Notes: generated by a model not told the origin, from the letters alone. 64,000 bases of DNA from a virus (IMGVR_UViG_3300044814_000107:3224-67223), one strand, 5' to 3'; counted from the stretch's first letter, positions 16,419 through 51,929 are shown. Numbers and translations are program-made.

Positions 16419-16827
16419 TTTCGTCAATCTCGACCTCACCGCTGAACTTCTCGAAGCTCCCGCGCCGCATCGCTTCGCGGACCCGATGGAGGACGAACCA
16501 CGCCGACTTCTGAGTGATCCCGAGCGACCGGCCGAGTTCATGCGAGCTGATCCCGTTCTTCGAGTTCGCAACCAGCCAGATAGCCGGAAGCCACTTGTCG
16601 AAGCCGAGCGCGGAGTCCTCGAAGATCGTGCCGACCTTGACGCTGAACTGCCGCTTGCAGGACTTGCACTTCCACCTGCGCTGATTGGCCAGGTAGGAGT
16701 GTTCGGGAGCGCCGCAGGACGGGCAGACAGGGCCATCGGGCCAACGCAGATCGGCCACGAACTTGGTGGCTACGTCGAGGTTGGAGAAGTAGCGGATCAC
16801 TTCGAGGAGGTTCGTGGGTTCGTTCAT
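16399..16827 (-). pseudogene. IS1595 (ISXO2-like) transposase, N-terminal zinc-ribbon fragment
   Basis: The product reads PDGPVCPSCGAPEHSYLANQRRWKCKSCKRQFSVKVGTIFE and ends ...SGEVEIDERGYPLR* at the MITE boundary. Confidence 0.8.
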
Positions 16828-40601: not shown

Positions 40602-42226
40602 TCAGATCCTTTCGGCGATGAAGTCGCTCAGGATGTTCGGAGTCGCGGTGTCCATGCCAACCACGTCCATCATCCCCGCGTCGTTCGGGTCGGCGATCGA
40701 GAAGCCGTTCGAGACCATCCCGACGACAGCGCAGCGCGCGTCGATCTGCGACGAACGCCGGTACTGGTCGAGGGCCTGCTTCGGATGGATCGAGCCGGCC
40801 CACGTCTCGCTGTCGGTCAGGACGACGAACGAGTCGAAGTCCTTCCCCTGCTGCTGCGCGTAGAGCATCGGGAGCGCGCAGTCCGTCCCGCCGAACGGCA
40901 GGCCCGTGACCGTCCGTACGGCGTCGTCGAGCCGCTGCCGCGACGAGAGGCCGAGCGGCGTCAGAGCGGTATCGCCGCCGAACGTCGAGTAGCGGCCGGT
41001 CTTCGACGTGAAGCCGACGACCTCGCAGTCCTTCTCCTTCGCGAGCGTGACGAGCGCGAGCGCGGCCGACGCGCCGCGGGGCGTCAGCGGCGAACCGGCG
41101 ACGTTCCCCGAGGCCATCGACCCGGAGACGTCGAGCGCGAGCAGGATCCGCTTCCCCGTCGCCTCGACGTTGTCGAACGCGAGGTAGAACGCCGCGTCGA
41201 GCGCGTCGATGACGACCGGCAGCGGAGTCCACGTGTTCGTACTCCGCATCCCGTGGCCGACCCCGTACGTCGCGAGCGCGACGAGCAGCGCCAGCGGATG
41301 CAGGCGCGACTTCCGGATCCGCTCGCCGTCGGCGAGCTGCTCGACGACGAGCTTCCGGTAGTCGCCCTCGAGGACCCCGAGGCGCGTCATGTTCGCGAGG
41401 TTCCGCGTCAGCGCGTGGATCGGCATCCCCCCGTCGAGGAGCGCGCGCCAGACCTCCGGATCGGTCAGGTGCTCCGTCTTCAGCGCCTCACGCGGAAGGA
41501 CGTATTCGCGGCAGAGCGACGCGGTCTGCGCCGGCGTCTCGGCCCGCTGTGCCCGCTCGAAGCCGTTCACGATGAGCGTGTTGTCCGAGAGCGGCGTCTT
41601 CTCCGACCCGCCGACGATCCAGGCGAAGAGCTGGTCGAGCTCGGAGCCGCGCTCGGGCGTCGGCTTCGCGAGGCGGAGCAGGTCGCGGTGCGACCAGCCG
41701 TCGCGCTGCCGGTACTTCACGGCGTCGTACGCGAGCGAGGAGACGCCCTTCGTCTCGTACCAGTTCCGGATCGCCCACTTCGCCGTCCGGCCCCAGCCGC
41801 GCTGCGTCTCGAGGTACGTCGCGAAGTGGTACAGGTGCGTCCCGATGCGCGCGACGAGCGGCAGCGCCTCGGCGGCCGCCTTCTTCGTCGCCTTGTCGCC
41901 GGCCGAGATCGCGACGGCCAGCGCGAAGAGCGCCGGGTCGTTCGAGGGTGCGCGACCGGCCTGCGATACCTGGACGATCTCGGCAACGAGGCGCTCGCCG
42001 TCCTGCTGCGCGAGCTCGCGGAGCGCGCCGACGTTCTCGCGGGTCAGGTCACGCTCGGTCGCGTAGTACGACCCGCCCTCGGAGCCGAGGATCAGGAAGC
42101 GCCGGAGGCGCGTCCAGCCGTCGACGGCCCAGACGAACCCGCCGGCCGAGTTCTCGACCTGGCCGGGCTCCATCGGCTCGTCCTGCGGGGTCTGAAGGGT
42201 CGAACCGTGCTTCTCGAGGTAGCTCA
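40602..42226 (-). CDS. rsr: Ro60 ortholog (Rsr; TROVE domain plus vWA/MIDAS)
   Basis: Track ORF 40602..42668, trimmed to MSYLEKHG, which is preceded by GGAGA. The product has a TROVE region followed by a C-terminal vWA domain with a MIDAS motif (ILLALDVSGSMASG). Confidence 0.85.
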
Positions 42227-42379
42227 TCTCGGTCTCCAATCGGCAGAGGGAACGGGACGTCGCGGACGAGATGTGGGAGTCGGATCGGGCGAGCGTCACG
42301 CCCATGCTCCGTTGCGAGGTAACCGACCTAGCCCTCCGGTCCAGCGACAGCGGGGAGACTACCTGACGCAGCGGTCGTA

Positions 42380-43168
42380 GTCGAGGGGGCGAGTAACGCG
42401 ACGGTGTCGGACTCCTGCCAGCTTCAGCAGCCGGTGATAACCGACGGGGTGCCGCTCCGGCCCACCTCTTCTGTCTCTGCCGAGAGACGTCAGGGAGAGT
42501 ACCGCGCGGGCGAGGAACTGACGGCCGAGTCCATCCGATCCCGAGGGATCGTACGGCGGGAGTCGAACCCGCTTTACCAGATAACCGGCTACGTCTCCGG
42601 CCCAGCGCTCGAGCCAGCGTACCGCCCGCGCAGATCCCTCGTTCGAGGGATTCTCTCGATCTCGGCACGTTCCGATCTATCCGACATGGATACAGAAGAA
42701 GAGATCGAGATCATCCCGGGCCGCTGCGTCGTCTGCGACGGGCCGGCCGAGGAGGACGGCGGACTCCTGTTCTGCGAGTTCTGCCCCGCCGTCGACGACG
42801 AAGCGAGAGGTGGAAGGCTGAAGTTGCGCGGGCGAGGTGTCGAAATCGGGTTTAGCGCTCTTCCAGTTGAGCTACCGCCCGCCGAAGCGGAACGACCGGG
42901 GATCGAACCCGGATCTCTCCTTTAGCAGAGGTAACCGATTCCGTTCGGCCCAGCGCGACGCCCAGCCTAGCAGGGCTGTCTCGTCGGCGTCGCGCTTGAG
43001 CGAGGAAGGAGTGCAGTGCGCGGGCGAGATTATCGAGGACCGGGTTTTAGGCGTCCTGTGCCACTTAGACGACGTCGCCCGAAGGCTACGGCGGGAGTCG
43101 AACCCGCGTCTCCCCCTCCAGATGGGTAACCGGATCTCGGCCGGCCCAGCGCGACGCGGACTCTATCA
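42380..43168 (-). ncRNA. cluster of about four tRNA-like, Y RNA-like repeats upstream of rsr
   Basis: The minus strand carries repeated canonical T-arms (GCGGGTTCGACTCCCGC and CCGGGTTCGATCCCCGG). There is one acceptor-plus-D-arm module (GCGGGCGGTAGCTCAACTGGAAGAGCGC...CGCCCGC). Conserved GCGCTGGGCC and GGTTA(C/T)C blocks recur in each unit. The units do not fold as complete cloverleaves, because the anticodon arm is missing, which fits the tRNA-mimic domain described for bacterial and phage Y RNAs. Boundaries are not resolved. Confidence 0.5.
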
Positions 43169-43169
43169 G

Positions 43170-43251
43170 CGGAAGGTGAAGGAGTCGAACCCTCGGGCAT
43201 TACCCCGGCCTGGTTTTCGAGACCAGTTTGCTCCCACGAGCGCCACCCTCC
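43170..43251 (-). tRNA. tRNA-Ser (anticodon CGA)
   Basis: Minus-strand sequence GGAGGGTGGCGCTCGTGGGAGCAAACTGGTCTCGAAAACCAGGCCGGGGTAATGCCCGAGGGTTCGACTCCTTCACCTTCCG. The acceptor stem is 7 bp including one G-U pair. The anticodon stem is CTGGT/ACCAG with loop CTCGAAA. The variable arm is long. Confidence 0.7.
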
Positions 43252-43263
43252 AGGGAAGCGGCG

Positions 43264-43521
43264 TCATTCTGCCTCCATTGTGTAGACGATCTGCAAGGGG
43301 TTCAGGAACGCCCGCCTCGGCGGAGCGCCGTGGACGATCCCGATGAGGCGCGGCTTCGAGCGGACACGAACTCCGAACCAGCGATGGACGCGGATGACCG
43401 TGCGCCAGTAGAACGTACCCAGCATCGCCCTCTGCCAGCGACGGTTGAACGAACGGTACGAATCGGAAACGGTAAAGGTGATCCCGTCCCCCATGCGTAC
43501 CAGCGTCGATCGCCTAGCCAC
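43264..43521 (-). CDS. hypothetical protein
   Basis: An 85-aa ORF downstream of the HNH gene. Support is only moderate. Confidence 0.35.
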   Translation of the reverse strand: MARRSTLVRMGDGITFTVSDSYRSFNRRWQRAMLGTFYWRTVIRVHRWFGVRVRSKPRLIGIVHGAPPRRAFLNPLQIVYTMEAE

Positions 43522-43885
43522 GGGAGGCCACGGTCTGTTCGGGCAGCGGAAGAACTCCCGCCTCTTGTTGTCGCCGCCATGTTCGCTCGCGGTGGCAGTT
43601 CGCGCAGACGACGTCGCACATCGCGATCTCGGCGAGGAGACGCGCGAGCGAACCGCCCTTGTGGGCCAGCTCGCAGATGCCGCTCGTCTTAGGTTCGCCC
43701 GGTCGGTGATCGAGATCCATCACGTAATGCGGGTACGAGTGGCCGCAGTCTTGGCAGGGCTTCGCCTTCGCCTCCCTGACGACAGCGGCGTTCCGCGCCT
43801 TGACTCGGTTGCGCGTCCGCGGCCTGTTCTCACGCGCCCACTTCGCCTGCGCCTCTCGTTGCCGGTCCTCGTCCTTGTACGGCAT
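43514..43885 (-). CDS. HNH endonuclease
   Basis: HNH motifs are present: CQDCGHSYPHYVMDLDHRPGEPK and CANCHRER. Confidence 0.8.
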   Translation of the reverse strand: MPYKDEDRQREAQAKWARENRPRTRNRVKARNAAVVREAKAKPCQDCGHSYPHYVMDLDHRPGEPKTSGICELAHKGGSLARLLAEIAMCDVVCANCHRERTWRRQQEAGVLPLPEQTVASRG

Positions 43886-43912
43886 CCCCGCACCGCAGTC
43901 TAACGGGTTATA

Positions 43913-43996
43913 CGGCGGGCGAGGGAGTCGAACCCTCTCAGCCTTGCGACCTCACGCGGCTAGCAACCGCGGCTCGTCACCGTGCGAGCACCCGCC
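43913..43996 (-). tRNA. tRNA-Ser (anticodon GCT)
   Basis: Minus-strand sequence GGCGGGTGCTCGCACGGTGACGAGCCGCGGTTGCTAGCCGCGTGAGGTCGCAAGGCTGAGAGGGTTCGACTCCCTCGCCCGCCG. The anticodon stem is CGCGG/CCGCG with loop TTGCTAG. The variable arm is long. Confidence 0.7.
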
Positions 43997-44049
43997 GTAG
44001 TCGGCTAGGCAGATGACGAACTGAAGACCGCGAACCTCACGCCGGCGAG

Positions 44050-44198
44050 TCTAGCTGTGACGAGCGCTCTCGGCGACGATCTTCCTTGCTGCGCCACGGC
44101 TTGACCTCGGCGTTGCAGTTCGAGCATCGTCCTTCGACGATCTTGCAGCGGCCACCCTTCTCCGGGCAGAACGTAACCTCGCCGAGGAATCGCATGTG
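44050..44198 (-). CDS. possible small zinc-ribbon protein (about 49 aa)
   Basis: Own translation gives MRFLGEVTFCPEKGGRCKIVEGRCSNCNAEVKPW..., directly after the stop of the upstream gene. Confidence 0.3.
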
Positions 44199-44206
44199 GC
44201 CGTCGA

Positions 44207-44782
44207 TCAGAAGAGGTCGTCTCCCATCCCGAGGCCGCGCTTGCGTTCCGGCCGTTCGAGCATCGCGAGGTCTACGGACGGCATCAGTTCGTCGACCGAC
44301 GGCATCGTCTCGAGGAATCCGAGCGCCGCGTCGCTGGTCAGGCCGGCGCGGACGAGCTGCGTCTGCACCTCGAGAAGCTGCCGGTCGATCTCGGCGACCG
44401 CCGTCCGTTCGCTCGCCTCGATCCGCTTATACGCCGCGCGGCGGAGGTCGTTCTGCTCGAACGCGACCGCGACCGGCCCCTGCGCCTGCCACGAGAACGC
44501 GAGCCGAGGCGCAAAGCCGGCCGGGATCCCGAGTTCCGCGCAGCGCTGCGCGACCTTCTCCTGCGCCTCGTCGACCGCCTTCTTTGCCTCCTCGACGGCC
44601 TCCTTCCAGACGTCGTCGCGGTTGTAGTCGTAATGGGTCAGGAGCTCCTGCTCGAACATGGCCTTCAGATCGGAAGAGCGGCGCTTCGCGTCACTCTTCG
44701 CGACCCTGGCCCGCTCGCGGGCGAGTCGGCGAAGGTCCTCGCGCTCGCCCTTCGTCATCGGTTTCTGCTCGGGCTCAGACAC
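44207..44782 (-). CDS. hypothetical coiled-coil protein
   Basis: Track ORF 44207..44911, trimmed to a GTG preceded by GGAGGAG (VSEPEQKPMTKGERE). Confidence 0.5.
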   Translation of the reverse strand: MSEPEQKPMTKGEREDLRRLARERARVAKSDAKRRSSDLKAMFEQELLTHYDYNRDDVWKEAVEEAKKAVDEAQEKVAQRCAELGIPAGFAPRLAFSWQAQGPVAVAFEQNDLRRAAYKRIEASERTAVAEIDRQLLEVQTQLVRAGLTSDAALGFLETMPSVDELMPSVDLAMLERPERKRGLGMGDDLF

Positions 44783-45122
44783 GGCTCCTCCATAGCATCG
44801 GCCTCTGGCCCTCGATCTGGATGCGCTCGACCGCGCCGCGCTTCTCGAGCGCTCGGAGGCGAGGGTGGAGCTGGTAGCCGAGGGTCTTGATTCCCTCGTC
44901 CTTCGCCTCACCCAGCGCGAGCAGGCGAGCGCCGAGCGGCTCTTCTGTGCCGCGCGCGTCCGTTCCCCACTCGAAGTCGTATCCGTGCCGGTCGCTCCAA
45001 CGATCGAAGGCTCGCTGCCGGATGCGATCAGCGATCTCGTTGGCCGAGAGCGGCCCGTTCTCCAGCACGGCGAGGATCTCGCGGTCGTCCGCGCGAAGGG
45101 TCACCTGCGTACTGGTCGTCAC
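44775..45122 (-). CDS. putative winged-helix DNA-binding protein
   Basis: The product reads LRADDREILAVLENGPLSANEIADRIRQ. The GTG start overlaps the upstream stop (GTGA). Confidence 0.45.
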   Translation of the reverse strand: MTTSTQVTLRADDREILAVLENGPLSANEIADRIRQRAFDRWSDRHGYDFEWGTDARGTEEPLGARLLALGEAKDEGIKTLGYQLHPRLRALEKRGAVERIQIEGQRPMLWRSRV

Positions 45123-45385
45123 CGTCTGCCGCTGCCGCGCGCGATGTACCCGCCAAGCTCGGCCGTGCCGGTCTTCCGGTCGAAGACGGGAACACCGGCA
45201 CCACGGATCGCGTCGTCGTCGGCGATCTGCGCCGTCGTCCGCGCGCCCTGGCGGCGCCTACCCCTCGAAACGGCAGACTCGTACCCGGGAGCTTCGCGGC
45301 CGGCGATCAGGCCGTCGTCGTCGTCGCGGTTGACGCCGGGGATCCGGCTCTTCGTGAAGAACAGACCGCGAGGAAGTTTCGGCAC
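45119..45385 (-). CDS. hypothetical small protein
   Basis: The GTG start lies 8 nt after the TerL stop. The stop overlaps the next start. Confidence 0.35.
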   Translation of the reverse strand: MPKLPRGLFFTKSRIPGVNRDDDDGLIAGREAPGYESAVSRGRRRQGARTTAQIADDDAIRGAGVPVFDRKTGTAELGGYIARGSGRR

Positions 45386-45395
45386 GCCGAGAAGT

Positions 45396-48002
45396 CTAGT
45401 AGTCGTGGACGCCGGCGCCCATCGGGACGATCCCCGGAATGTCGCCCTTCGCGACGAACGAGCCGTGCGGCGCCGTCGCTGGCTTCCACATCTTCAGCTC
45501 CCAGAACCCCCAGACGAGCGCGTCCATGCGGTTCGGAGACTCGTCCGCGGGCGTCCAGGTCGTCATCTCGTCCTCGAGCTCGGGGAAGGCGCCGACGTGC
45601 CGGATCGTCGCCTGCTTCTCGTGCTCCACGTCGGAGAAGTAGAGGGCCGAGATCGGCTCCGCCCTGGTGCGCTTCCCGCGGCTGGCCGTGACGAGCCTGA
45701 CGGGGACCGTCGAGTCGTACCCCTTGATCGTCAGCTCGACCATCTCGCCGCCGTTGTTCGACTCGGCGACGATCTTGTCCGCCTTCCAGTCGTGGAAGGC
45801 GTCGACGCTCGCGGCCGCCCACGCCTTCGGGCCACCCTTGATCTGCGTGCGGTCGTCGAGGACGTACCCGAGACCGTCTTCGCCGAGCCCGACGACGACG
45901 ATCCCGGCCGCGTCGGCCGACTCGCCTGACGTCGTGTTCGGGTCGACGCCGACCACGATCTTTCGCATCCGGTCGCCCCACTCGTCCCGCAGCGCCGCGA
46001 CCCGCTGCCAGCCACCCTGAACGACCGGCGCTTCGACGCGGATAGCGTCGATCGCCGCGCGCGTCCAGAGCGCCCCCTCGACGTCCTCGAGCAGTTCGGC
46101 CTCGATCTCCTGCCGGCCCGTCCGCGTCCCCTCAAGCGGCGCGACGACCTCCTGCCACCAAACGTCCGAGAGGTTCTCGCGGTTCTCGTACGACGAGCCG
46201 CGGACGAGGACGTACGCGGCTCGCGTCTTCGTCAGTTCGACCAGCTCGCGCGTCAGCCGGTTCGCCTTCGGCGTCGACGTCAGCACCGCCCGCGGATGCA
46301 CGCCGAGGCGCAGACCCAGCGTCATGTTCGACCACGTCGTGTCCATCTGCGACCCGACAGCCGCGCCCTTCGCCGCGTCCTTCCACGACGAGGTCTCCTC
46401 GCACCATGCGTAGTGGTGCTGCGGGCCTCGGAGCCGGTTAGGCTCCTCCGACCCGAACCCCTTGTAGATCGTCCCGTTCGCGAGGGTCAGCTCGAGCAGA
46501 GACTTGTTCCAGGCGACGCTGCGCGACCCGCCGAGCAGCTCCGAATCGGCGAAGACGGAGAGCAGGCCGGTCTCGCCCTCGAAACAGGTAGCGCGGACAT
46601 CGCCGAGCGTCGGCGCGATCACCGCGATCCGGCGCCGCGGAGCTTCGAGGCCGCGCGCCCTGGCCCACTGCGCCGCGCTGACCGTGTTGTGGGTCGGAAT
46701 CATCGCGTCCCCGGCGAGGTAGATCCGGTGAGGCGAGCCGACGGCGACGCAGTACATCGGCAGATCGACGCCTGTCGGCTCGATATTCACGATCATCCGG
46801 TGAAGCGACCGGAACGCCTGCCGCCCGAGCGGCCGACACCGATCGGCCTTGCGAGGGAGCCGGAAGACGGGCAGCGTCGGCCGCCACGTTACGCGATAGC
46901 GGCGCTTGCACTCGCGGCCGTTCAGGAAGGACGGACCGTCGGAGAGGGACGGCTTCTGGCCTAGCGACGTCGCGAGTTCCATCACAGCCTCCGCGAGCTG
47001 CGGGAGAGACGACGCGAACTCGACGTGCGAGGTCTGCGCGACAGCATGTCCGTCCGAATCCATGAGCCCCTGCAAGAGCGCGAGTCTCTGCGCGATAGAC
47101 CCGCGCAGGTACGCGGCCGGGACGTGCTTATTACCGAGCAGCCCCTCCTCCCTGAGAAGTCCGCGCAGACCGCGCGTACCGACGTCATTCGGATGCGAGA
47201 GTCGCCGGGGCGAGAACGCGGCAGCCTCCTTGAAGAACGACGTCTGGTCGTCCGGATGAATCGTTAGCTGCCCCGAGATCGTCGTCCCATCGCCGAGCCA
47301 GTAGCCGAGGACGTACGGGTCGATCGGCAGGTCAGCCTCGGGAAGGTCGAGCGGTGCCGCGACCGGGATCGAGTGGTTCAGGTCACCGCGGACGCCTCTC
47401 CGCAAATCGAACGCGAGCTGCGCGGTCGTACGAACGCGCGGCCCCGGACCGTCCTCGACCCTCTGCGGCTCCCTGTCGCGCCTCCACGCCCGCCGTACGC
47501 GCCACGCAGGCCAGTCATCCGGAAGCCGCGTCGAGTCCTCATAGGCCGACCGGAGATACGCCTTCCGCGCCGCCTTATCCCATGTCGTCCACTGGTGATC
47601 GGCGCAGGCGAGGATCGAGCTCCCGTCCGAGAACGTCAACCGATACGCCTCGACGATGCGACGCTCCGACTTCCAAGTAACGCGCGTCGGGCACCCCTGC
47701 TCGTCGAGCAGAAGATCGCCTACCCGCACGTCGCGCATCGTCACCCACCCGGACGGCGTCGGAAGCCGCGTCTCCTCGTGCAGGAGCTTCCCGAAGCCGC
47801 GGCCGGCCATCAGGTACCAGAACACCCAGTCGCCCGCAGGCGCGAGCTGCTTCGGCCTGGCGCGGTACCGCCAGTTCGTCAGGGCCCGACGGGATAGCTC
47901 GTCGGGAGAGATGTTCGACTTCGCAGCCTCGTCCGCGAGCCACGCGCGTCGCTGCTCCGGCGCGAACCCGGCGACCCGCTCGAGCAGGGACTCCTCGGTC
48001 AC
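45396..48002 (-). CDS. terminase large subunit with a P-loop intein (868-aa precursor)
   Basis: The Walker A motif AGRGFGK is split before its final Thr by an insert that runs from LLHEETRLPTPSG to MIPTHN. The insert contains block B (CADHQW) and a LAGLIDADG-like segment (LGYWLGDGTT). The C-extein has nuclease-like residues (VVGVDPNTTSGESADAAGIVVVG) typical of a terminase nuclease domain. Confidence 0.85.
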   Translation of the reverse strand: MTEESLLERVAGFAPEQRRAWLADEAAKSNISPDELSRRALTNWRYRARPKQLAPAGDWVFWYLMAGRGFGKLLHEETRLPTPSGWVTMRDVRVGDLLLDEQGCPTRVTWKSERRIVEAYRLTFSDGSSILACADHQWTTWDKAARKAYLRSAYEDSTRLPDDWPAWRVRRAWRRDREPQRVEDGPGPRVRTTAQLAFDLRRGVRGDLNHSIPVAAPLDLPEADLPIDPYVLGYWLGDGTTISGQLTIHPDDQTSFFKEAAAFSPRRLSHPNDVGTRGLRGLLREEGLLGNKHVPAAYLRGSIAQRLALLQGLMDSDGHAVAQTSHVEFASSLPQLAEAVMELATSLGQKPSLSDGPSFLNGRECKRRYRVTWRPTLPVFRLPRKADRCRPLGRQAFRSLHRMIVNIEPTGVDLPMYCVAVGSPHRIYLAGDAMIPTHNTVSAAQWARARGLEAPRRRIAVIAPTLGDVRATCFEGETGLLSVFADSELLGGSRSVAWNKSLLELTLANGTIYKGFGSEEPNRLRGPQHHYAWCEETSSWKDAAKGAAVGSQMDTTWSNMTLGLRLGVHPRAVLTSTPKANRLTRELVELTKTRAAYVLVRGSSYENRENLSDVWWQEVVAPLEGTRTGRQEIEAELLEDVEGALWTRAAIDAIRVEAPVVQGGWQRVAALRDEWGDRMRKIVVGVDPNTTSGESADAAGIVVVGLGEDGLGYVLDDRTQIKGGPKAWAAASVDAFHDWKADKIVAESNNGGEMVELTIKGYDSTVPVRLVTASRGKRTRAEPISALYFSDVEHEKQATIRHVGAFPELEDEMTTWTPADESPNRMDALVWGFWELKMWKPATAPHGSFVAKGDIPGIVPMGAGVHDY
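46686..47786 (-). mobile_element. class-3-like intein (~367 aa) with a LAGLIDADG domain, in the TerL P-loop
   Basis: It has a non-nucleophilic Leu at position 1, the WCT signature residues (Trp after the block B His, Cys in block F at MYCVAV, Thr in block G at PTHN), and Thr as the +1 residue. Confidence 0.6.
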
Positions 48003-48490
48003 CCGCCGGCGGTCTGGCGGGCAGCCTCGCGCGCGTCCCTGCGCCGGCGCGCATCCGCGATCTCGTCGCAGCGACGCTCGAGCCGCTCAGCGATCGACTC
48101 GTCCTGAACGAGCTCGAGGTCGAGCGGGTCGCTGTCGTCGATCGGGACGAACTCCGCCGGCCTGCCCCAGCCGCGCTCGGCGAGGATCTTCGAGACCGCG
48201 AGCCGGTCACCGATCGAGACCGGCTCGTACGTCGTCTCCTTCTCGCCGGTCGGCTCGCCCTTCGCGTTCACGACGGTGCGCTGCGTTCGGAGCTCGCCGG
48301 AGAGGACAGCTCCCCAGAAGCCGACGAGGCTCTCGCCGTCGTCGCCGATGGTCTCGCGGACGCGGGATGCGAGGCCCTTCTTGCGGCCTCCGGGGTTGCC
48401 GGAGACGCCCTTCTCGAAGGGGCGGCCGACCGTCGCTGTTCTTGGGCTGTTCTCAGCGGGCGGTTCGGCTTGATCAAGCGGTTCGCGCAT
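47999..48490 (-). CDS. putative terminase small subunit
   Basis: It sits immediately upstream of TerL with an ATGA overlap. A GNPGGRKKG-type motif (FEKGVSGNPGGRKKG) is present. The CTAC-CCTC-GTAG motif lies 5 nt upstream of the ATG. Confidence 0.5.
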   Translation of the reverse strand: MREPLDQAEPPAENSPRTATVGRPFEKGVSGNPGGRKKGLASRVRETIGDDGESLVGFWGAVLSGELRTQRTVVNAKGEPTGEKETTYEPVSIGDRLAVSKILAERGWGRPAEFVPIDDSDPLDLELVQDESIAERLERRCDEIADARRRRDAREAARQTAGG

Positions 48491-48495
48491 TGGGA

Positions 48496-48507
48496 CTACG
48501 AGGGTAG
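48496..48507 (-). promoter_or_regulatory. CTAC-CCTC-GTAG variant, 5 nt 5' of the terminase small subunit ATG
   Basis: Same arms as the canonical motif, with a different 4-nt spacer. Confidence 0.4.
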
Positions 48508-48625
48508 CGCGCGAGGGGGTGAGCGGGCAAGTCCGCCGGCTTATCGGCGCTTCGACTTAGCGATCCCGATGATGCGGCCGTCACGGACGTAGAGGGTCAG
48601 TCGCCCAGCTACGTTCGTAGCACTT

Positions 48626-50221
48626 TCAGGCTACTCGGCGGCGTTTGTCGCGGGCGATAGCGGCGCTGATGAGGTCAGACGCCTCGCCCTTCGTCAGGCC
48701 GTCCGTGACCGGGATCCCGTGCTGGTGGAGGAACGCGACCTGCTTCCCGGACGGCGGCTTGGCCCTCCACGGAGCGGTCTTGTCGACGAGAGCCTTCACG
48801 CTGCTGTCCTGGTTACTGCGGAGGAACTCTTCGGCGACGCCCATCGCGTATCCGATGTCGAGTCCTTCGCCGAGGCTGACGTTGCGGCCACCCTTCTCGC
48901 GGCGTATCGCGTCCCATCGTTCGGCGGGTCGCGGGTGGAGGAAGATGTCGCCGAGGTCGCCGAGGTTGAGGAGCCAGCTTCCGTCCTCGAGGCGGAGCCA
49001 GTTGAGGTCCTTCCGCTCGAAGAGGTTCGCGACCTCCATGCCCGCGCCGCTGGCGGTCGGGTCCCAGAGGCCGGCGAGTTTCGCGGGGCCCTGCGCCAGG
49101 ATGCGAACGGCCCCTTCCTTTTCGCAGGATCCGGGCCGGAGGCCGAACATCTTCGGCAGCGACATGATGTCGAGGCGGTCGCTGTTTCCGACGAGGTCGA
49201 GGACGACGAGGTCGTCCTTGCCGGGGTGGAGGCGCGTGCCGCGGCCGACCATCTGGACGTAGAGCGGTCGGCTGCGCGTCGGGCGGGCGACGATGATGCA
49301 GCCGACGGATGGCTCGTCGTATCCCTCGGTTAGGACCATCGCGTTCGCGACGACGCGCGTCTCGCCTGATGCGAACCTGTCGAGGACGGCCCGACGGTCG
49401 GAGATGTCCATGAGTCCGTCGACGGCCTCGGCCGGGACTCCTGCGGCGCTGAACGTGGCCGCCATCTGGTGTGCGGCGACGACGGTCGGGGTGAAGATGA
49501 TCGCTTTGCGGCCGTCCGCGTGTTCGAGGTAGGAGTTCGCCGCGACTGAGTAGGCGTGCGTGGCGTTGAGCATCCCTTCGACGTCGCGGCCGACGAAGTC
49601 GCCTCGGCTGACGCGGAGCTTGCCCATGTCGTAGGCGAGCCGGACGGCGTAGGCGCGGACGTCGACGAGGTATCCAGCGGCGATCATTTCGCGGATGTCC
49701 TTGAAGTAGACGACACGCTCCCAGACGGCTCCGAGGCCGACCCTGTCTCCTCGCTCGAGGGTCGCGCTGACGCCAACGAGCAGCGAACCCGGCGCGCGGG
49801 CGTCGATGATCCGACGGTAGGTGGCGGCGACGGCGTGGTGGGCCTCGTCGATCACGGCCGTCGCGAACAGGTCGAAGGGGAACTCGTCGATTCTGCGCTG
49901 CCGGGAGAGCGACTGAACGCTGGCGATCACGACGTCGTGGTCGATGTCGTTGGTGCCCGCCTGGACGAATCCGATGTCGACCGCTGGGTTGATCTCCCGG
50001 TACTTGTCCGCCGCTTGGCGGAGTAGCTCGTCCCTGTGCGCGAGGATCAGCGTCCGGCCGAGGTGCTTCCGCTCCTCCGCGAGCTGCGAGAAGACGATCG
50101 TCTTGCCTGTCCCCGTCGGGAGTCCGACCGCTGGTGCCATGCAGCCATCGGCCGCGGCGGCGTGAATCGCATCTACGGCTTCTCGCTGGTACGGCCGAAG
50201 CCGGATCGTCGGAACGGTCAC
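48626..50221 (-). CDS. SF2 DEAD/DEAH-box helicase
   Basis: Motif I (LPTGTGKT), motif II (DEAHH), a SAT-like motif and motif VI (QMVGRGTR) are present. The GTG start lies 2 nt after the CTACGGTCGTAGCG motif. Confidence 0.8.
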   Translation of the reverse strand: MTVPTIRLRPYQREAVDAIHAAAADGCMAPAVGLPTGTGKTIVFSQLAEERKHLGRTLILAHRDELLRQAADKYREINPAVDIGFVQAGTNDIDHDVVIASVQSLSRQRRIDEFPFDLFATAVIDEAHHAVAATYRRIIDARAPGSLLVGVSATLERGDRVGLGAVWERVVYFKDIREMIAAGYLVDVRAYAVRLAYDMGKLRVSRGDFVGRDVEGMLNATHAYSVAANSYLEHADGRKAIIFTPTVVAAHQMAATFSAAGVPAEAVDGLMDISDRRAVLDRFASGETRVVANAMVLTEGYDEPSVGCIIVARPTRSRPLYVQMVGRGTRLHPGKDDLVVLDLVGNSDRLDIMSLPKMFGLRPGSCEKEGAVRILAQGPAKLAGLWDPTASGAGMEVANLFERKDLNWLRLEDGSWLLNLGDLGDIFLHPRPAERWDAIRREKGGRNVSLGEGLDIGYAMGVAEEFLRSNQDSSVKALVDKTAPWRAKPPSGKQVAFLHQHGIPVTDGLTKGEASDLISAAIARDKRRRVA

Positions 50222-50223
50222 CG

Positions 50224-50235
50224 CTACGACCGTAG
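50224..50235 (-). promoter_or_regulatory. start-associated motif CTACGGTCGTAGCG, immediately 5' of the helicase GTG
   Basis: Exact 12-mer. Confidence 0.55.
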
Positions 50236-50472
50236 CGCAGCGGTCGGACGGGATCTACGCAGCGCGGAGGAGTTCGAGCTCTTCGAGTTCGACAACGGAC
50301 TCGGGCAGCAGTCGCAGCGGCACCTTGAAGTCCTGCTCGACCTCGTGACGGATCATGGGAAGGTTCCGCCGGCGCGTCTCCGCGTCGATCCGTCTACGGA
50401 TCTCGTCGAGCTCCGGAACGGTGAGGGATCGCCTGTCGATGCGTGGAGTTGAGCAGATCCATCGGCCGGACG

Positions 50473-50841
50473 CTAGGCAACGCGCGCCGCGCGCCGCTCG
50501 AGCTGCTCGGCACGCTGACGGAGCCGACGCCGCTCGCACTCCCTCCGGCCCGAGGCGTAGACGTGCCGGTGACGGCAAGGCGGCAGGTCGCCGCGGAACG
50601 CGCGCATCAGCCGGGCGAGCATCTCGACCTGCGGGTGATGGTGGGCGCACGCGGTCACGCAGTTGTCCTCGTCGAGAGCGAGGTCGGGGCGCTGCTCGCG
50701 CGGGATCAGGTGATGGACGTGGAGGACGCCGCGGCAGTCCCCGCCGAGGAGACGGGCGACACTACAGCGGCCAGCGTCGCGCGCGAGAACGCGCTCGCGG
50801 ACGAGCTTCCACTCGGGTGAGGTGAGGAACGGGTCTGTCAC
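50473..50841 (-). CDS. HNH endonuclease
   Basis: HNH motifs are present: CRGVLHVHHLIPREQ and NCVTACAHHH. Confidence 0.75.
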   Translation of the reverse strand: MTDPFLTSPEWKLVRERVLARDAGRCSVARLLGGDCRGVLHVHHLIPREQRPDLALDEDNCVTACAHHHPQVEMLARLMRAFRGDLPPCRHRHVYASGRRECERRRLRQRAEQLERRAARVA

Positions 50842-50948
50842 AGCGGATCACCGCTAGGAGGATGCCCGACCCGTCGGACAGCAAAACGCCCATAGCGAGC
50901 GCGACGAGCCACAAGCAGGGCCGGTAGAGACTCTACGCCGTGCAGCGA

Positions 50949-51929
50949 TCAGAACGCGACGAGCGGCTCGAAGATCGGCAGCGACTCCTGGTTCGCCTCG
51001 TCCCCAGCAGCAGCGACGTTCTTCACGGCCTGCCGGTAGTAGCTCGGCTTCAACTCGACGCCGATCCCGAAGCGGCCGTTCTGGACGGCCGAGTAGACCT
51101 CCGACCCGACCCCCATGAATGGCGTCAAGACTCGCTCGCCGGGATTCGACCAGAGCACTACAGCCCGGTCGATCACGTCGAGTTGGAGCGGATGAACGTG
51201 CTTCTCGTCCTCGTCGTCGCGGGCCTCACGGAACGGGAGCACACGGTCGAGCCGCACGTCGTCCCAGAACGCGGATGCGTACTGTCGCCAGATCCAGTGC
51301 GAGTAGCGGTTCTCGGTCTGCTTGCCGTCGTAGCCGCGGTAGCGGAGCAGGTCCTCGGGGATAGATCGTTCGCCGGCGTAGTCCAGTAGGCCGTTCGGGT
51401 GTTCCACCGGGACGGGGTTTTCGCCGGCGCTGCGGAAGACGAGGAGGTAGTCGGCCGAGGCGACCGAGCAGCGCGTCGCGTCCTCGACGACTGTCCGGTG
51501 CGTGAGTCCCTTCACCATCGTCCGGTTGCGAACGGTGAGCGGCTCCTTCCAGACGTGGTAGCGGGCGACGTAGTCGAACCCGAGCTCGCGGTGGAGGCGG
51601 ATGATGTCGCCAGGGAAGTCCGTCAGGCCGTCGCCCTTGCCGGTGTTCCCGGTCGGCACGTCCATGCAGTGAACGCAGCTCATCCGACCCGGCATCGTCG
51701 CGCGACCGATCTCCTCAACAAAGAAGCGGTAGTGGTCGAAGAACTCGTCGTAGTCGCGGCTGTTCGAGAGATCCCGCTCGCTCGACGTGTACTGGTAGAG
51801 ACCCGCGAACGGCGGCGAGTAGATCGACAAATGGATCGACCCGTCAGGCAGAGACGGCATAACCTCCATCGCATCGCCGCAGTAGAGGGCGTATCGCTCG
51901 GTGAGCGTCTGGTCTACGACTTGAGCCAT
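50949..51929 (-). CDS. DNA methyltransferase (beta-class N6A/N4C; motif IV SPPF)
   Basis: Track ORF 50949..52367, trimmed to MAQVVDQTL. Motif IV (IYSPPFAG) precedes a C-terminal motif I (VLTPFMGVGSEVYSAVQNGRFGIGVEL), which is the permuted beta-class order. Confidence 0.75.
   Translation of the reverse strand: MAQVVDQTLTERYALYCGDAMEVMPSLPDGSIHLSIYSPPFAGLYQYTSSERDLSNSRDYDEFFDHYRFFVEEIGRATMPGRMSCVHCMDVPTGNTGKGDGLTDFPGDIIRLHRELGFDYVARYHVWKEPLTVRNRTMVKGLTHRTVVEDATRCSVASADYLLVFRSAGENPVPVEHPNGLLDYAGERSIPEDLLRYRGYDGKQTENRYSHWIWRQYASAFWDDVRLDRVLPFREARDDEDEKHVHPLQLDVIDRAVVLWSNPGERVLTPFMGVGSEVYSAVQNGRFGIGVELKPSYYRQAVKNVAAAGDEANQESLPIFEPLVAF

What the first reader, a model, noticed from the sequence alone, without database searches (positions are those of the whole stretch)
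40602..43260. Ro60 (TROVE) ortholog with an upstream array of tRNA-like Y RNA candidates and two tRNA-Ser genes
The gene at 40602..42226 encodes a TROVE domain followed by a vWA/MIDAS domain (DVSGSM), which is the Ro60/Rsr architecture. Directly upstream on the same strand lie about four repeats. Each contains a perfect tRNA T-arm (GGTTCGA(C/T)TCC), shared GCGCTGGGCC and GGTTA(C/T)C blocks, and in one case a complete acceptor-plus-D-arm module without an anticodon arm. This matches the tRNA-mimic domain reported for bacterial and mycobacteriophage Y RNAs (YrlA-like). Bona fide tRNA-Ser(CGA) and tRNA-Ser(GCT) genes flank the array. Such modules have been described, but this one has several Y RNA paralogs packed next to tRNAs, and its boundaries are unresolved.
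Basis: partly seen in the sequence, partly recalled or inferred. Interest (0 to 1): 0.7.

Follow-up and report, generated by a model that had tools for sequence, protein, structure and literature searches.

The report
Phage Ro60 gene with five Y RNAs
An uncultured actinobacteria-type phage carries a Ro60 RNA-binding ring protein preceded by five small Y RNA genes, two of which mimic tRNA; it is a well-supported, richer-than-usual example of a module already known from bacteria and mycobacteriophages.

Summary
The minus-strand gene 40602..42227 is a full-length Ro60/Rsr ortholog (TROVE plus Ro60-type vWA). Upstream on the same strand lie five Y RNA units, not about four. Each has the same closing helix, a CGGUUAYC block and a CUCG(C/U)CC 3' strand.

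- **Y1 and Y2:** complete YrlA-type RNAs with T arm, closed acceptor-like stem and D arm.
- **Y3:** keeps only the T arm plus one hairpin.
- **Y4 and Y5:** have no tRNA-like part.

A covariance model built only from other phages finds Y2 (81 bits), Y1 (62 bits), Y3 (24 bits) and weakly Y5. Y4 and Y5 are supported by orthologs in related contigs that carry compensatory changes. Rfam's YrlA threshold is not reached, but it is not reached by known phage YrlAs either.

Each unit is preceded by a TANNNT hexamer at a fixed distance, which suggests each has its own promoter. Y5 lies in the presumed Ro60 5' UTR. A 181-bp segment carrying a small Cys-rich ORF is inverted relative to a close relative.

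Both tRNA-Ser genes lie upstream of the array, and they are structurally atypical. Multi-copy Y RNA arrays are common at phage Ro loci. This is a new member of a known kind, of moderate interest.

The parts
40602..42227 (-). Ro60/Rsr ortholog CDS, 541 aa, stop at 40602-40604, ATG at 42225-42227
   Evidence: Pfam TROVE 5e-39 and vWA_Ro60 6e-58. PHROG 850 RNA-binding protein 2e-84. PDB 2nvo 3e-118 and 1yvp 4e-108. The public JGI gene call for this protein (P0003, 567 aa) starts 26 codons too far upstream, inside Y5.
42234..42248 (-). Conserved CUCUGCCGAUUGGAG just before the Ro60 start codon. CUCU can pair with the Shine-Dalgarno GGAG.
   Evidence: Seen directly in the sequence. The same motif, CUCUGCCG(A/G)A(A/U)GGAG, is present in L032, L034, L036, L037, L039 and L040. 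Its function is inferred.
42259..42348 (-). Y5: short Y RNA with no tRNA-like part. Closing helix GUCGC-U-GGAC/GUCC-GCGAC, then a three-way junction with two small hairpins. Its 3' end lies 31 nt from the Ro60 ATG.
   Evidence: R1 gives 15.5 bits, E 0.05. Orthologs exist in L032, L036 and L040. The RNAalifold consensus has 28 pairs, 5 with compensatory changes and 1 broken cell of 112. MFE fold.
42356..42361 (-). TAGTCT, a -10-like hexamer 7 nt upstream of the first base of Y5. A TCGACT -35-like motif lies 17 nt further upstream.
   Evidence: Conserved in position in L032, L034, L036, L037, L039 and L040.
42383..42468 (-). Y4 core: short Y RNA with closing helix GAGG-U-GGGC/GCCC-CCUC, CGGUUAUC and an apical hairpin
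   Evidence: Matches the composite motif. MFE fold. Y4-class orthologs exist in L032, L034, L036, L037 and L039; stem 1 is 98% paired with 3 compensatory pairs. Not detected by R1 or R2. L032 carries a 27-nt apical deletion.
42473..42501 (-). Y4 leader: TACTCT -10-like hexamer (42496-42501) and conserved hairpin GUCUCU-CGGC-AGAGAC (42473-42488)
   Evidence: The hairpin with its GGCAGAG loop is conserved, with compensatory changes, in L032, L034, L036, L037, L039 and L040.
42504..42608 (-). Y3: Y RNA with a T arm (42556-42572) and one long hairpin (42531-42556), but no D arm
   Evidence: R1 gives 24.2 bits, E 3e-4. MFE fold. Units of the same class are L034 691-817 and L036 2549-2682.
42616..42621 (-). 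TACGCT, a -10-like hexamer 7 nt upstream of Y3
42623..42803 (.). Segment inverted relative to the close relative L032. It is bounded by inverted copies of the Y 3'-strand motif CGCCCGCGC. It carries the start and the first 39 codons of a small plus-strand ORF whose full extent is 42686-42925 including the stop (79 aa, CxxC-17-CxxC); the ORF therefore runs about 120 nt past this segment into the antisense of Y2.
   Evidence: blastn: L032 170-345 matches window 42623-42803 on the opposite strand at 85.7%. Inverted repeat I17. In L032 the ORF is 48 aa, has its own stop and is on the Ro strand. Codon-position GC is .72/.40/.85 for the first 40 codons.
42804..42822 (-). Orphan half of a Y RNA 3' end (UUCAGCCUUCCACCUCUCG), cut off by the inversion
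   Evidence: Homologous to L032 152-170. Its continuation CGCCCGCGCA now lies on the plus strand at 42623-42632.
42826..42956 (-). Y2: complete YrlA-type Y RNA with an exact GNCGAAN0-1G motif (GCCGAACG), UUAC, T arm 42896-42912, closed acceptor-like stem with UUCG loop 42875-42895, and D arm 42857-42872
   Evidence: R1 gives 81.2 bits, E 1e-18. Rfam YrlA partial hit at 21.5 bits, E 0.16. Included in the RNAalifold analysis.
42964..42969 (-). TAGGCT, a -10-like hexamer 7 nt upstream of Y2
43018..43152 (-). Y1: complete YrlA-type Y RNA with T arm 43091-43107, a 7-bp acceptor-like stem with UUCG loop 43073-43090 (one A.G mismatch), and D arm 43053-43070
   Evidence: R1 gives 62.4 bits, E 7e-14. 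Included in the RNAalifold analysis.
43160..43165 (-). TAGAGT, a -10-like hexamer 7 nt upstream of Y1. The -35 position falls in the T loop of tRNA-Ser(cga).
43169..43251 (-). tRNA-Ser(cga), abutting Y1. It has a 7/5 cloverleaf and a long variable arm, but G instead of U at position 8.
   Evidence: ARAGORN. The Rfam tRNA model did not reach its gathering score. tRNA-Sec model 34.7 bits, below its gathering score of 47.
43912..43997 (-). tRNA-Ser(gct), upstream of an HNH endonuclease gene (43514-43885) and an 85-aa ORF (43264-43521). ARAGORN draws an 8-bp acceptor stem and a single linker nucleotide.
   Evidence: ARAGORN. Rfam tRNA-Sec 42 bits, below its gathering score of 47. HNH PHROG 3106 at 3e-23.

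Best explanation
This is the Ro60-Y RNA ribonucleoprotein module of an uncultured actinobacteria-type phage: one Ro60 gene and five Y RNA genes (Y1 to Y5) on the same strand.

**Shown**
- The protein is a full-length Ro60 ortholog.
- All five RNAs share one closing helix: 4-5 bp, a bulged U, then GG(G/A)C paired to G(C/U)CC, a bulged C, then 2 more bp. They also share an internal loop, a second stem ending in CGG-UUAYC, and a variable apical module.
- In Y1 and Y2 the apical module is a circularly permuted tRNA (variable loop, T arm, closed acceptor-like stem, D arm), as in YrlA.
- Y3 keeps the T arm only. Y4 and Y5 have simple hairpins.
- These classes are conserved in the same order in related phage contigs.

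**Inferred**
- Ro60 binds the 5' strand of the closing helix of each RNA, by analogy with the X. laevis and D. radiodurans work cited in Chen et al. 2014.
- The apical module tethers the ring to a host factor, most likely PNPase, or gates access to the ring. This would redirect host structured-RNA decay or repair during infection.
- Each RNA is transcribed from its own -10 element, starting at the first base of the helix, or at a leader hairpin for Y4.
- Transcription from the Y5 promoter runs on into Ro60, so Y5 is also the Ro60 5' UTR.
For: **Protein**
- Pfam TROVE and vWA_Ro60.
- PDB matches to Rsr and Ro60 at E 1e-108 to 1e-118.

**RNAs in the window**
- Five composite-motif matches against 0 in shuffles.
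- Model R1, built from 11 units of other phages only, hits Y2, Y1, Y3 and Y5 and nothing else comparable in 64 kb.
- Among the five paralogs, 4 of the 8 closing-helix pairs change on both sides with none broken (sequences).

**Family structure**
- On 27 units, 94.6% of cells are paired against 39-43% when the partner is slid. 23 of 28 pairs have compensatory changes.

**Orthologs**
- Y5 class: 28 pairs, 5 compensatory.
- Y4-class stem 1: 98% paired.
- The order full YrlA, T-arm-only, Y4-like, Y5-like recurs in L034. A similar five-unit array occurs in L036.
- The Y4-Y5 non-coding stretch is about 98.5% identical to L032, while Ro60 third codon positions are 89.5% identical.

**Promoters**
- TANNNT lies 7 nt upstream of Y1, Y2, Y3 and Y5. 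Its background frequency is 0.1% per position, giving P about 5e-10 if the units were independent.
- The same arrangement holds at 16 units of related loci, and ahead of the Y4 leader hairpin in 6 loci.

**Literature**
- YrlA-like RNAs lie within 4 kb of Ro60 on the same strand in 254 bacteria and 22 phages. M. smegmatis YrlA and YrlB are bound by Rsr (PMC4201824).
- Thermus phage phiLo Ro60 binds two upstream Y-like RNAs and host PNPase in vitro (PMC12135203).
Against: - There are no expression, end-mapping or binding data of any kind.
- Rfam's YrlA model reaches only 21.5 bits against a gathering score of 69. The Deinococcus Y RNA hit has E 8. Known phage YrlAs also fail that threshold, at 33-42 bits.
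- Y4 is not found by either model trained on other phages. A close relative has lost its apical hairpin, so Y4 could be decaying.
- Folding energies are not better than shuffles at a convincing level: z from +0.6 to -2.1.
- The sigma-70 consensus scan finds no promoter and no relevant terminator. The promoter claim rests on a -10 hexamer alone, and the paralogs are not independent trials.
- No PNPase, RtcB or other obvious partner is encoded next to Ro60 in the window, so the effector is unknown.
Confidence: 0.85

Rival explanations
1. The units act mainly in cis. They would be Ro60-binding or structural elements of a long leader of the Ro60 mRNA, giving autoregulation or processing signals, rather than stable trans-acting Y RNAs.
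For: - No intrinsic terminators lie between units.
- Y5 ends 31 nt before the Ro60 ATG with no -10 hexamer in between.
- A conserved motif can sequester the Shine-Dalgarno sequence.
- Spacers between Y4 and Y5 are as conserved as the units themselves.
Against: - Each unit has its own -10-like hexamer at a fixed distance.
- Homologous RNAs in M. smegmatis, S. Typhimurium and D. radiodurans are stable, Rsr-bound species (PMC4201824).
- A full tRNA-like fold is hard to explain for a leader.
- This reading may still hold for Y5 in addition to a trans role.
Confidence: 0.08
2. The units are decayed tRNA genes or tRNA-gene fragments left next to the phage's tRNA cluster, with no relation to Ro60.
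For: - T arms are identical to that of the neighbouring tRNA-Ser(cga), GGTTCGACTCC.
- The Rfam tRNA and tRNA-Sec models give weak hits on Y2 and Y3.
- A Y RNA in prophiGD43A-5 is annotated as tRNA-Thr.
Against: - The element order is T arm, then acceptor-like stem, then D arm. This is permuted relative to a tRNA gene and has no anticodon arm.
- ARAGORN calls none of them.
- The non-tRNA closing helix is the most consistently conserved part and it covaries.
- The same units sit next to Ro60 in dozens of unrelated contigs.
Confidence: 0.03
3. The repeats are reiterated promoter or recombination elements. What is conserved would be the DNA (the TANNNT boxes and GC-rich repeats that mediate rearrangements such as the 181-bp inversion), not an RNA.
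For: - The inversion is bounded by inverted copies of CGCCCGCGC.
- The unit homologous to Y2 in L032 looks recombinant, at 72.7% identity against 91.5% for its neighbours.
Against: Compensatory base changes preserve pairing between segments 60-130 nt apart. Selection on DNA repeats does not predict this.
Confidence: 0.03

Closest known systems
YrlA RNAs (Rfam RF02553; S. Typhimurium, M. smegmatis, mycobacteriophage ET08; Chen et al. 2014, PMC4201824; structure in bioRxiv 10.1101/312249)
   Same: - Encoded upstream of Ro60 on the same strand.
- The 5' and 3' ends pair to form the Ro60-binding stem.
- A GNCGAA-type motif sits near the 5' end (exact in Y2), followed by YUAY.
- The effector module is a circularly permuted tRNA: variable loop, T arm, closed acceptor-like stem, UA linker, D arm. 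This applies to Y1 and Y2.
   Different: - The Rfam gathering score is not reached.
- The motif is mostly CCGGAG rather than CGAA.
- Both strands of the Ro-binding helix are conserved, with a bulged U and a bulged C. Chen et al. report that only the 5' strand is recognisable in Salmonella and M. smegmatis.
- There are five paralogs, each with its own -10-like box.
- The acceptor-like stems are closed by UUCG tetraloops.
YrlB of M. smegmatis and S. Typhimurium; Yrl1 and Yrl2 of Thermus phage phiLo (PMC12135203)
   Same: They are additional short Y RNAs between YrlA and Ro60 that lack a full tRNA-like domain. M. smegmatis YrlB keeps a possible T arm, like Y3. The phiLo RNAs are phage-encoded, lie upstream of the phage Ro60 and bind it in vitro.
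   Different: No sequence similarity was tested or expected. The window has three such RNAs of distinct, conserved classes. The Y4 class has a leader hairpin and the Y5 class a three-way junction.
D. radiodurans Yrn1/Yrn2, metazoan Y RNAs and nematode stem-bulge RNAs
   Same: They have a bulged closing helix with both strands conserved. The 5' strand (U)GG(G/U)CCGA is followed some 10 nt later by GGUUAUC. Human Y1 starts GGCUGGUCCGAAGGUAGUGAGUUAUC (recalled from memory, not tested). Related phage units reach the Rfam nematode sbRNA family ceN72-3_ceN74-2 (L008 38.5 bits against a gathering score of 38; Cashline 31.8 bits).
   Different: The window itself gives no match to the metazoan Y_RNA family at E up to 10, and only E 8 to Deinococcus_Y_RNA. 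The metazoan RNAs have no tRNA-like module.
Ro60/Rsr proteins (D. radiodurans Rsr 2NVO, X. laevis Ro60 1YVP, phage Ro-like RNA-binding proteins, PHROG 850)
   Same: Full-length TROVE ring plus vWA domain with a MIDAS motif. 356 phage records carry a homolog.
   Different: At most 53% identity to any cultured-phage protein (Gordonia phage Cashline). At most 71% to any metagenomic one apart from its own contig and the partial L032.

Membership tests
Ro60/Rsr (TROVE) proteins | TROVE HEAT-repeat ring domain followed by a Ro60-type vWA domain with a MIDAS motif | tested here: met
   PF05731 at 5e-39 and PF25045 at 6e-58, both above their curated cut-offs. DVSGSM is present in the translation. Full-length alignment to 2nvo, 9nen and 1yvp.
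YrlA (Rfam RF02553) | Score at or above the Rfam gathering threshold (69 bits) | tested here: not met
   Best hit is 21.5 bits, E 0.16, a partial match on Y2. The published phage YrlA of ET08 reaches 37 bits, and Cashline, GD43A-5 and FuzzBuster reach 33-42 bits, so all also fail. The threshold therefore does not separate actinophage members from non-members.
YrlA (as defined by Chen et al. 2014) | Encoded within 4 kb of the Ro60 ortholog on the same strand | tested here: met
   All five units lie 31-925 nt upstream of the Ro60 ATG on the minus strand.
YrlA (as defined by Chen et al. 2014) | GNCGAAN0-1G motif near the 5' end, followed by a conserved YUAY | tested here: met
   Y2 has GCCGAACG, an exact match. 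Y1 has GCCGGCCG, Y3 and Y4 have GCCGGAG, and Y5 has ACCGGAG; these are one- or two-base variants that are the consensus of related phage units (R1 consensus CCGGA). UUAC or UUAU is present in all five.
YrlA (as defined by Chen et al. 2014) | T stem-loop, closed acceptor-like stem-loop and D stem-loop, in that order | tested here: met
   Met for Y1 and Y2: R1 alignments and RNAalifold with 16 of 24 pairs compensatory. Y3 has the T arm and one hairpin only. Y4 and Y5 have none, so they are Y RNAs but not YrlA-type.
Y RNAs in general | The 5' and 3' ends pair into a bulged helix that carries the Ro60-binding site | tested here: met
   The helix of 4-5 bp, bulged U, 4 bp, bulged C and 2 bp appears in the MFE fold of all five units. 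Compensatory changes are seen among paralogs and orthologs.
Y RNAs in general | Stable small RNA physically bound by Ro60 | not testable with these tools
   Requires RNA-seq or Northern blots plus Ro60 immunoprecipitation or EMSA.
YrlA tRNA mimicry | tRNA-type modifications (pseudouridine 55, dihydrouridine), and RNase P or CCA-adding enzyme recognition | not testable with these tools
   Only sequence prerequisites can be read. The T loop is UUCGA(C/U). The Y2 D loop has A14, G18, G19 and A21, with an A15:U48 pair possible. Y1 has a 7-bp acceptor-like stem with one mismatch.
Canonical bacterial tRNA-Ser | Rfam tRNA (RF00005) gathering score; U8; two-nucleotide linker between the acceptor and D stems | tested here: inconclusive
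   ARAGORN calls both, with 7-nt anticodon loops, long variable arms and anticodons cga and gct. Neither appears at Rfam gathering thresholds. Both have G at position 8. ARAGORN draws Ser(gct) with an 8-bp acceptor stem and a one-nucleotide linker.

The most novel reading that the evidence does not exclude
In this phage clade one Ro60 ring is served by a conserved set of separately promoted Y RNA classes with graded effector modules: a full permuted tRNA, a T arm only, a hairpin with leader, and a three-way junction. These would act as interchangeable adaptors that couple Ro60 to different host partners or substrates. The promoter-proximal class (Y5) would double as the 5' UTR of the Ro60 mRNA, so that Ro60 controls its own synthesis by binding it, next to a hairpin that sequesters the Shine-Dalgarno sequence.
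Probability: 0.25. Interest if true: 0.6.

Novelty: new member of a known kind. Interest (0 to 1): 0.42.

Why it matters
Ro60-Y RNA particles are studied mainly in animals, because of lupus autoantigens, and in three bacteria. What phages do with them is open. This locus and its relatives offer a compact natural series for that question.
- One Ro60 gene sits with five RNAs that share the binding helix but differ in the effector end.
- It could serve as an experimental system for asking which module recruits which host factor, and whether the tRNA-like domain is needed.

The work also shows that current annotation misses these RNAs or mislabels them. One is annotated as a tRNA, and another is buried under an over-extended Ro60 gene call. 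The Rfam YrlA threshold does not capture the actinophage members.

Tried and rejected
- **Rfam at gathering thresholds:** nothing in the array. At E up to 10, only sub-threshold YrlA, tRNA, tRNA-Sec and Deinococcus Y RNA hits.
- **Model R2 for short Y RNAs:** built from 15 units of other loci, it was too weak. It hit Y2 and Y3 at E 0.08 and 0.37 and missed Y4 and Y5. It gives no independent support for Y4.
- **RNAalifold on the Y4 class:** it returned an alternative local pairing, not the Y fold. I therefore counted only the named stem 1. G+C richness keeps the slid controls high there, at 58-82%.
- **Folding-energy z-scores:** uninformative.
- **Sigma-70 and terminator consensus scans:** nothing relevant.
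- **The 215-nt gap between Y2 and Y3:** tested as a sixth structured RNA, z -1.8, not convincing. It turned out to be an inverted coding segment.
- **The small ORF:** no Pfam or PHROG family. tblastn hits to other loci were only to the antisense of Y RNAs.
- **Close relatives:** none in IMG/VR, GTDB genomes or INPHARED, where identity is at most 53%. The useful relatives came from exact-protein and pattern look-ups.
- **Two review papers on bacterial Y RNAs:** not held in the library. The statement that five-member arrays are undescribed therefore rests on the papers I could read.
Full report
**1. The protein**

The minus-strand ORF ending at 40602 has its most likely start at the ATG at 42225-42227, preceded by GGAG. 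The 541-aa product matches Pfam TROVE (5e-39) and the Ro60-specific vWA domain (6e-58). Both are above their curated cut-offs. It also matches PHROG 850. It aligns end to end with D. radiodurans Rsr (2nvo, 3e-118), RO60 (PDB 9nen) and X. laevis Ro60. The MIDAS motif DVSGSM is present. It is a Ro60 ortholog.

**2. The genomic setting**

The window is phage DNA of high G+C content.
- Portal at 18315-21365, 36% identical to that of Gordonia phage Belphegor.
- Large terminase with a LAGLIDADG intein at 45396-48002.
- A MuF-like protein fused to a 2H/LigT phosphoesterase at 16901-18307.
- An IS1595 transposase, a Mom-like protein, a helicase and glycosyltransferases.

No cultured phage, IMG/VR contig or GTDB genome has a Ro60 more than 53% identical. 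The same protein is found on a 92-kb JGI contig. A Logan contig (L033) is 100% identical to window 40689-52925.

**3. The repeats are five units, not four**

Read on the minus strand, every unit has three shared blocks.
- 5' strand: (G/U)(C/A)G(C/G)-U-GG(G/A)C-CG(G/A).
- CGGUUA(C/U)C some 10-20 nt later.
- 3' strand: CUCG(C/U)CC, continuing as the complement of the 5' end.

CGGTTAYC occurs six times in the window, five of them here. The three-block composite occurs five times, against none in 300 dinucleotide-preserving shuffles.

A search for the best partner of each 5' strand gave the same helix in all five units: 4 or 5 bp, one bulged U, then 4 bp. The MFE folds extend it by a bulged C and two more pairs. 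The units are Y1 43018-43152, Y2 42826-42956, Y3 42504-42608, Y4 42383-42468 and Y5 42259-42348.

For Y5 the true 3' strand is CUCGUCCGCGAC at 42259-42270, not the nearer CUCGCCC. Only the former complements GUCGC-U-GGAC.

Among the five paralogs, four of the eight helix pairs change on both sides and none is broken:
- G-C to U-A and G-C to A-U in Y5.
- C-G to A-U and C-G to G-C in Y4.

**4. Independent test with covariance models**

Rfam finds nothing in the array at gathering thresholds. At E up to 10 it gives a partial YrlA match on Y2 covering the T arm, acceptor-like stem and D arm (21.5 bits, E 0.16). It also gives an insignificant Deinococcus Y RNA match whose alignment follows the closing helix.

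This weakness is a property of the Rfam model. The published YrlA of mycobacteriophage ET08 scores 37 bits, and the units of Cashline, prophiGD43A-5 and FuzzBuster score 33-42 bits, against a threshold of 69.

I therefore collected Y-like units upstream of Ro60 in other phages and viral contigs. I aligned 11 of them, with none from the window, and built model R1 on their RNAalifold consensus.

Run without filters over all 64 kb, R1 gave these hits:

| Target | Bits | E-value |
|---|---|---|
| Y2 | 81.2 | 1e-18 |
| Y1 | 62.4 | 7e-14 |
| Y3 | 24.2 | 3e-4 |
| Y5 | 15.5 | 0.05 |

The only other hit below E 0.05 is the T arm of tRNA-Met. Y4 is not hit.

On 27 units from 15 sources aligned to R1, 94.6% of cells form standard pairs, against 39-43% when partners are slid. 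23 of 28 pairs show compensatory changes. That alignment is fitted to the model, which favours it somewhat. An unfitted MAFFT/RNAalifold analysis of 13 units including Y1 and Y2 gave 16 of 24 pairs with compensatory changes.

**5. Anatomy of each unit**

- **Y2** is a textbook YrlA. It has an exact GNCGAAN0-1G (GCCGAACG), UUAC, a variable hairpin and the T arm CCGGG-UUCGAUC-CCCGG. An acceptor-like stem is closed by UUCG, followed by a UA linker and the D arm GCUC-AACUGGAA-GAGC. The D arm has A14, G18, G19 and A21, and an A15:U48 pair is possible.
- **Y1** has the same parts. Its acceptor-like stem is 7 bp with one A.G mismatch, again closed by UUCG. Its linker is UC.
- **Y3** has the T arm, identical to Y1's, and one long hairpin, but no D arm.
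- **Y4** has an interrupted second stem and one apical hairpin.
- **Y5** has a three-way junction with two small hairpins.

This matches the description of YrlA as a circularly permuted tRNA lacking the anticodon loop (PMC4201824; bioRxiv 10.1101/312249). It also matches the YrlB-type companions. ARAGORN calls none of the units a tRNA.

**6. Relatives settle Y4 and Y5**

A search with the small ORF of the array found L032, a 1.6-kb contig. Its Ro60 N-terminus is 92% identical. Ro60 homolog look-ups gave these contigs:

| Locus | Ro60 identity |
|---|---|
| L034 | 71% |
| L036 | 66% |
| L037 | 66% |
| L039 | 64% |

A pattern scan added L040.

- L034 carries four units in the window's order: full YrlA (96.6 bits), T-arm-only, Y4-like, Y5-like. 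L036 carries five.
- The Y5 class (window, L032, L036, L040) has an RNAalifold consensus of 28 pairs. Five have compensatory changes, and a single broken cell occurs among 112.
- Adding shorter Y5-position units from L034, L037, L039 and L036 keeps the closing helix.
- The Y4 class (six loci) keeps stem 1 at 98% pairing, with three compensatory pairs. That test has little power because the helix is G+C rich.
- L032 has lost 27 nt of Y4's apical part. In L040 the unit at the Y4 position still has a T arm. Y4 therefore looks like a reduced derivative.
- The Y4-Y5 non-coding stretch differs from L032 by three substitutions and two indels in about 205 nt. Ro60 third codon positions differ at 10.5%. 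This indicates constraint, or recent exchange, across the whole stretch including the spacers.

**7. Boundaries and transcription (inferred)**

In the window, a TANNNT hexamer ends exactly 7 nt before the first base of the closing helix in four units:
- Y1: TAGAGT.
- Y2: TAGGCT.
- Y3: TACGCT.
- Y5: TAGTCT.

For Y4, TACTCT lies 7-8 nt before a leader hairpin, GUCUCU-CGGC-AGAGAC. TANNNT occurs at 0.107% of positions in this window. Four of five by chance has P about 5e-10 if the units were independent, which paralogs are not.

The same arrangement holds for 16 units in L032-L039, and for the Y4-class leader hairpin in six loci. The middle letters of the hexamer vary. The Y5 class also has TCGACT or TTGACT at the -35 position.

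TAG(A/G)(A/G)T-like -10 boxes are what I recall as the streptomycete consensus. That is memory, not a test. The tool's E. coli-type scan finds no promoter.

More distant phages such as ET08, L009 and L018 show a -10 box only before the first unit. This fits the single precursor reported for M. smegmatis (PMC4201824).

No terminator follows any unit. Y5 ends 31 nt before the Ro60 ATG with no -10 box between. Ro60 is therefore probably translated from a transcript that begins with Y5. The conserved CUCUGCCGA(A/U)(G/U)GGAG before the start codon could pair CUCU with the Shine-Dalgarno GGAG.

**8. Rearrangement inside the array**

Window 42623-42803 matches L032 170-345 on the opposite strand at 85.7%, while the flanks match on the same strand.

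The segment is bounded by inverted copies of the Y 3'-strand motif: CGCCCGCGCA on the plus strand at 42623-42632, and its complement at 42825-42834 (repeat I17). Window 42804-42822 plus the inverted CGCCCGCGCA together reconstitute the 3' end of a Y RNA homologous to the L032 unit at 55-178.

The segment carries a small ORF with the motif CxxC-17-CxxC. In L032 it is 48 aa, has its own stop and lies on the Ro60 strand. In the window it is antisense to the array. It runs on for 39 more codons through the antisense of Y2, and that tail lacks coding-type composition: GC3 is 0.51 there, against 0.85 for the first 40 codons. The two copies differ by three synonymous changes, two replacements and an in-frame 6-nt indel.

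The window's arrangement is thus most simply a derived inversion. L032 in turn has lost the 5' part of Y3.

**9. The tRNA genes**

Both tRNAs lie upstream of the array on the same strand. Ser(cga) ends 3 nt before the Y1 -10 box. Ser(gct) is separated from it by an HNH endonuclease gene (PHROG 3106, 3e-23) and an 85-aa ORF.

ARAGORN draws Ser(cga) as a normal class II tRNA, except for G at position 8. It draws Ser(gct) with an 8-bp acceptor stem, a single linker nucleotide and a 4-bp D stem. Neither reaches Rfam's tRNA threshold. The tRNA-Sec model scores them 34.7 and 42 bits, against its gathering score of 47.

Both have proper 7-nt anticodon loops and Ser anticodons. "Bona fide" is plausible but not established. 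tRNAs are not a conserved neighbour of the array in the relatives.

**10. How it most likely works**

Shown: the parts list and their conservation. The rest is inferred from the family.
- Ro60 binds the 5' strand of the bulged helix.
- The other end of a Y RNA tethers Ro60 to an effector. In D. radiodurans and Salmonella this is PNPase, forming a structured-RNA degradation machine. Bound Y RNA also gates the Ro60 cavity (PMC4201824; bioRxiv 10.1101/312249).
- A phage Ro60 with two upstream Y-like RNAs assembles with host PNPase in vitro (PMC12135203).
- A Listeria phage makes three very abundant RNAs upstream of an Rsr-like gene (PMC12282133).

In relatives of this window, the array sits next to a PNKP-like kinase/phosphatase and a SpoU methylase (L036), or a 2'-5' RNA ligase-like protein and RlaP (L037). 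This echoes the RNA-repair context noted for cellular and jumbo-phage TROVE proteins (PMC7824862). No such gene adjoins Ro60 in the window.

I put about 0.85 on "Ro60-bound Y RNAs". I put about 0.4 on host PNPase as the partner of the tRNA-like units. I put about 0.5 on per-gene promoters.

**11. Novelty**

Ro60 with YrlA-like RNAs in phages has been known since 2014, and 356 phage records carry the protein. Multi-unit arrays are common once looked for: 4 in prophiGD43A-5, 3 each in ET08 and FuzzBuster, 2 in Cashline, and 3-5 in several metagenomic contigs. The array as such is therefore not exceptional.

What is new here:
- The resolved five-member set with conserved classes.
- The metazoan/Deinococcus-like conservation of both helix strands.
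- The per-unit -10 boxes in this clade.
- Y5 as the presumed Ro60 leader.
- The inversion.

It is a new member of a known kind.

Noticed in passing
window 42623-42803, with the ORF at 42686-42925 on the plus strand: A 181-bp segment inside the Y RNA array is inverted relative to the close relative L032 and is bounded by inverted copies of CGCCCGCGC. It carries a small Cys-rich ORF (CxxC-17-CxxC) that in L032 is 48 aa and co-oriented with Ro60. In the window the ORF is antisense and reads on into the antisense of Y2. It has no Pfam or PHROG family.
   Followed up: yes
L001 3773-3892 and about 3581-3697; L006 3533-3654; L008 3224-3336: These are tRNA-ordered (un-permuted) versions of YrlA. They have an open 7-bp acceptor stem, a D arm, then a long closed stem-loop carrying the Ro motif (GGGUCGA...GAUUACC) where the anticodon arm should be, then a variable hairpin and a T arm. 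Rfam calls them tRNAs of 113-122 nt at 40-47 bits. The MFE fold of L001 3773-3892 is this cloverleaf, z -3.4. I did not find this form described in the papers I could read.
   Followed up: partly
L013 4814-4892 (Mycobacterium phage prophiGD43A-5, MW584167): The annotated tRNA-Thr(tgt) overlaps a 117-bit YrlA-like hit at 4755-4886. It is probably the tRNA-like domain of a Y RNA mis-annotated as a tRNA.
   Followed up: partly
window 43169-43251 and 43912-43997: Both tRNA-Ser genes have G instead of U at position 8 and miss Rfam's tRNA threshold. ARAGORN draws Ser(gct) with an 8-bp acceptor stem and a single linker nucleotide, and its best Rfam match is tRNA-Sec at 42 bits, below that model's gathering score of 47. 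This is possibly an unusual cloverleaf geometry.
   Followed up: partly
window 42473-42488, and the equivalent sites in L032, L034, L036, L037, L039 and L040: A conserved hairpin with loop GGCAGAG directly precedes the Y4-class unit. Its stem covaries (UCUCU/AGAGA against CCUC/GAGG). It resembles the CUCUGCCGA..GGAG motif in front of the Ro60 start codon. Its function is unknown.
   Followed up: partly
window 42983-43003: The spacer between Y1 and Y2 (AGCGCGACGCC) is complementary to the leader plus first helix strand of both Y1 and Y2 (repeats I3 and I8). It could form an alternative hairpin in read-through transcripts.
   Followed up: no
window 42228-42305: The public JGI gene call for this Ro60 (P0003, 567 aa) starts 26 codons upstream of the likely ATG and so runs into Y5. 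Chen et al. 2014 reported the same kind of overlap for M. smegmatis YrlA.
   Followed up: no
L036 231-2248; L037 1011-2456 and 4721-5506: In related contigs the Y RNA/Ro60 module is adjacent to RNA-repair-type genes. L036 has a PNKP-like kinase/phosphatase and a SpoU methylase. L037 has a 2'-5' RNA ligase-like protein and RlaP.
   Followed up: no
window 16901-18307: A MuF-like minor head protein is fused to a 2H/LigT phosphoesterase domain. The 481-aa 2_5_RNA_ligase2 protein directly upstream of the Y array in L037 may be its counterpart.
   Followed up: no
window 15717-16827, 45396-48002 and 21400-45400: An IS1595-family transposase, in two ORFs, sits next to tRNA-Thr. The large terminase contains a LAGLIDADG intein. 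About 24 kb separates terminase from portal; this stretch holds glycosyltransferases, an epimerase, an SPFH protein, the Ro60 module and the tRNAs.
   Followed up: no
window 42259-42503 compared with L032 381-590: The non-coding stretch covering Y4, Y5 and their spacers is about 98.5% identical between the two phages. Ro60 third codon positions are 89.5% identical. The spacers, including the hairpin GACUAC...GUAGUC between Y4 and Y5, are as conserved as the RNAs.
   Followed up: partly
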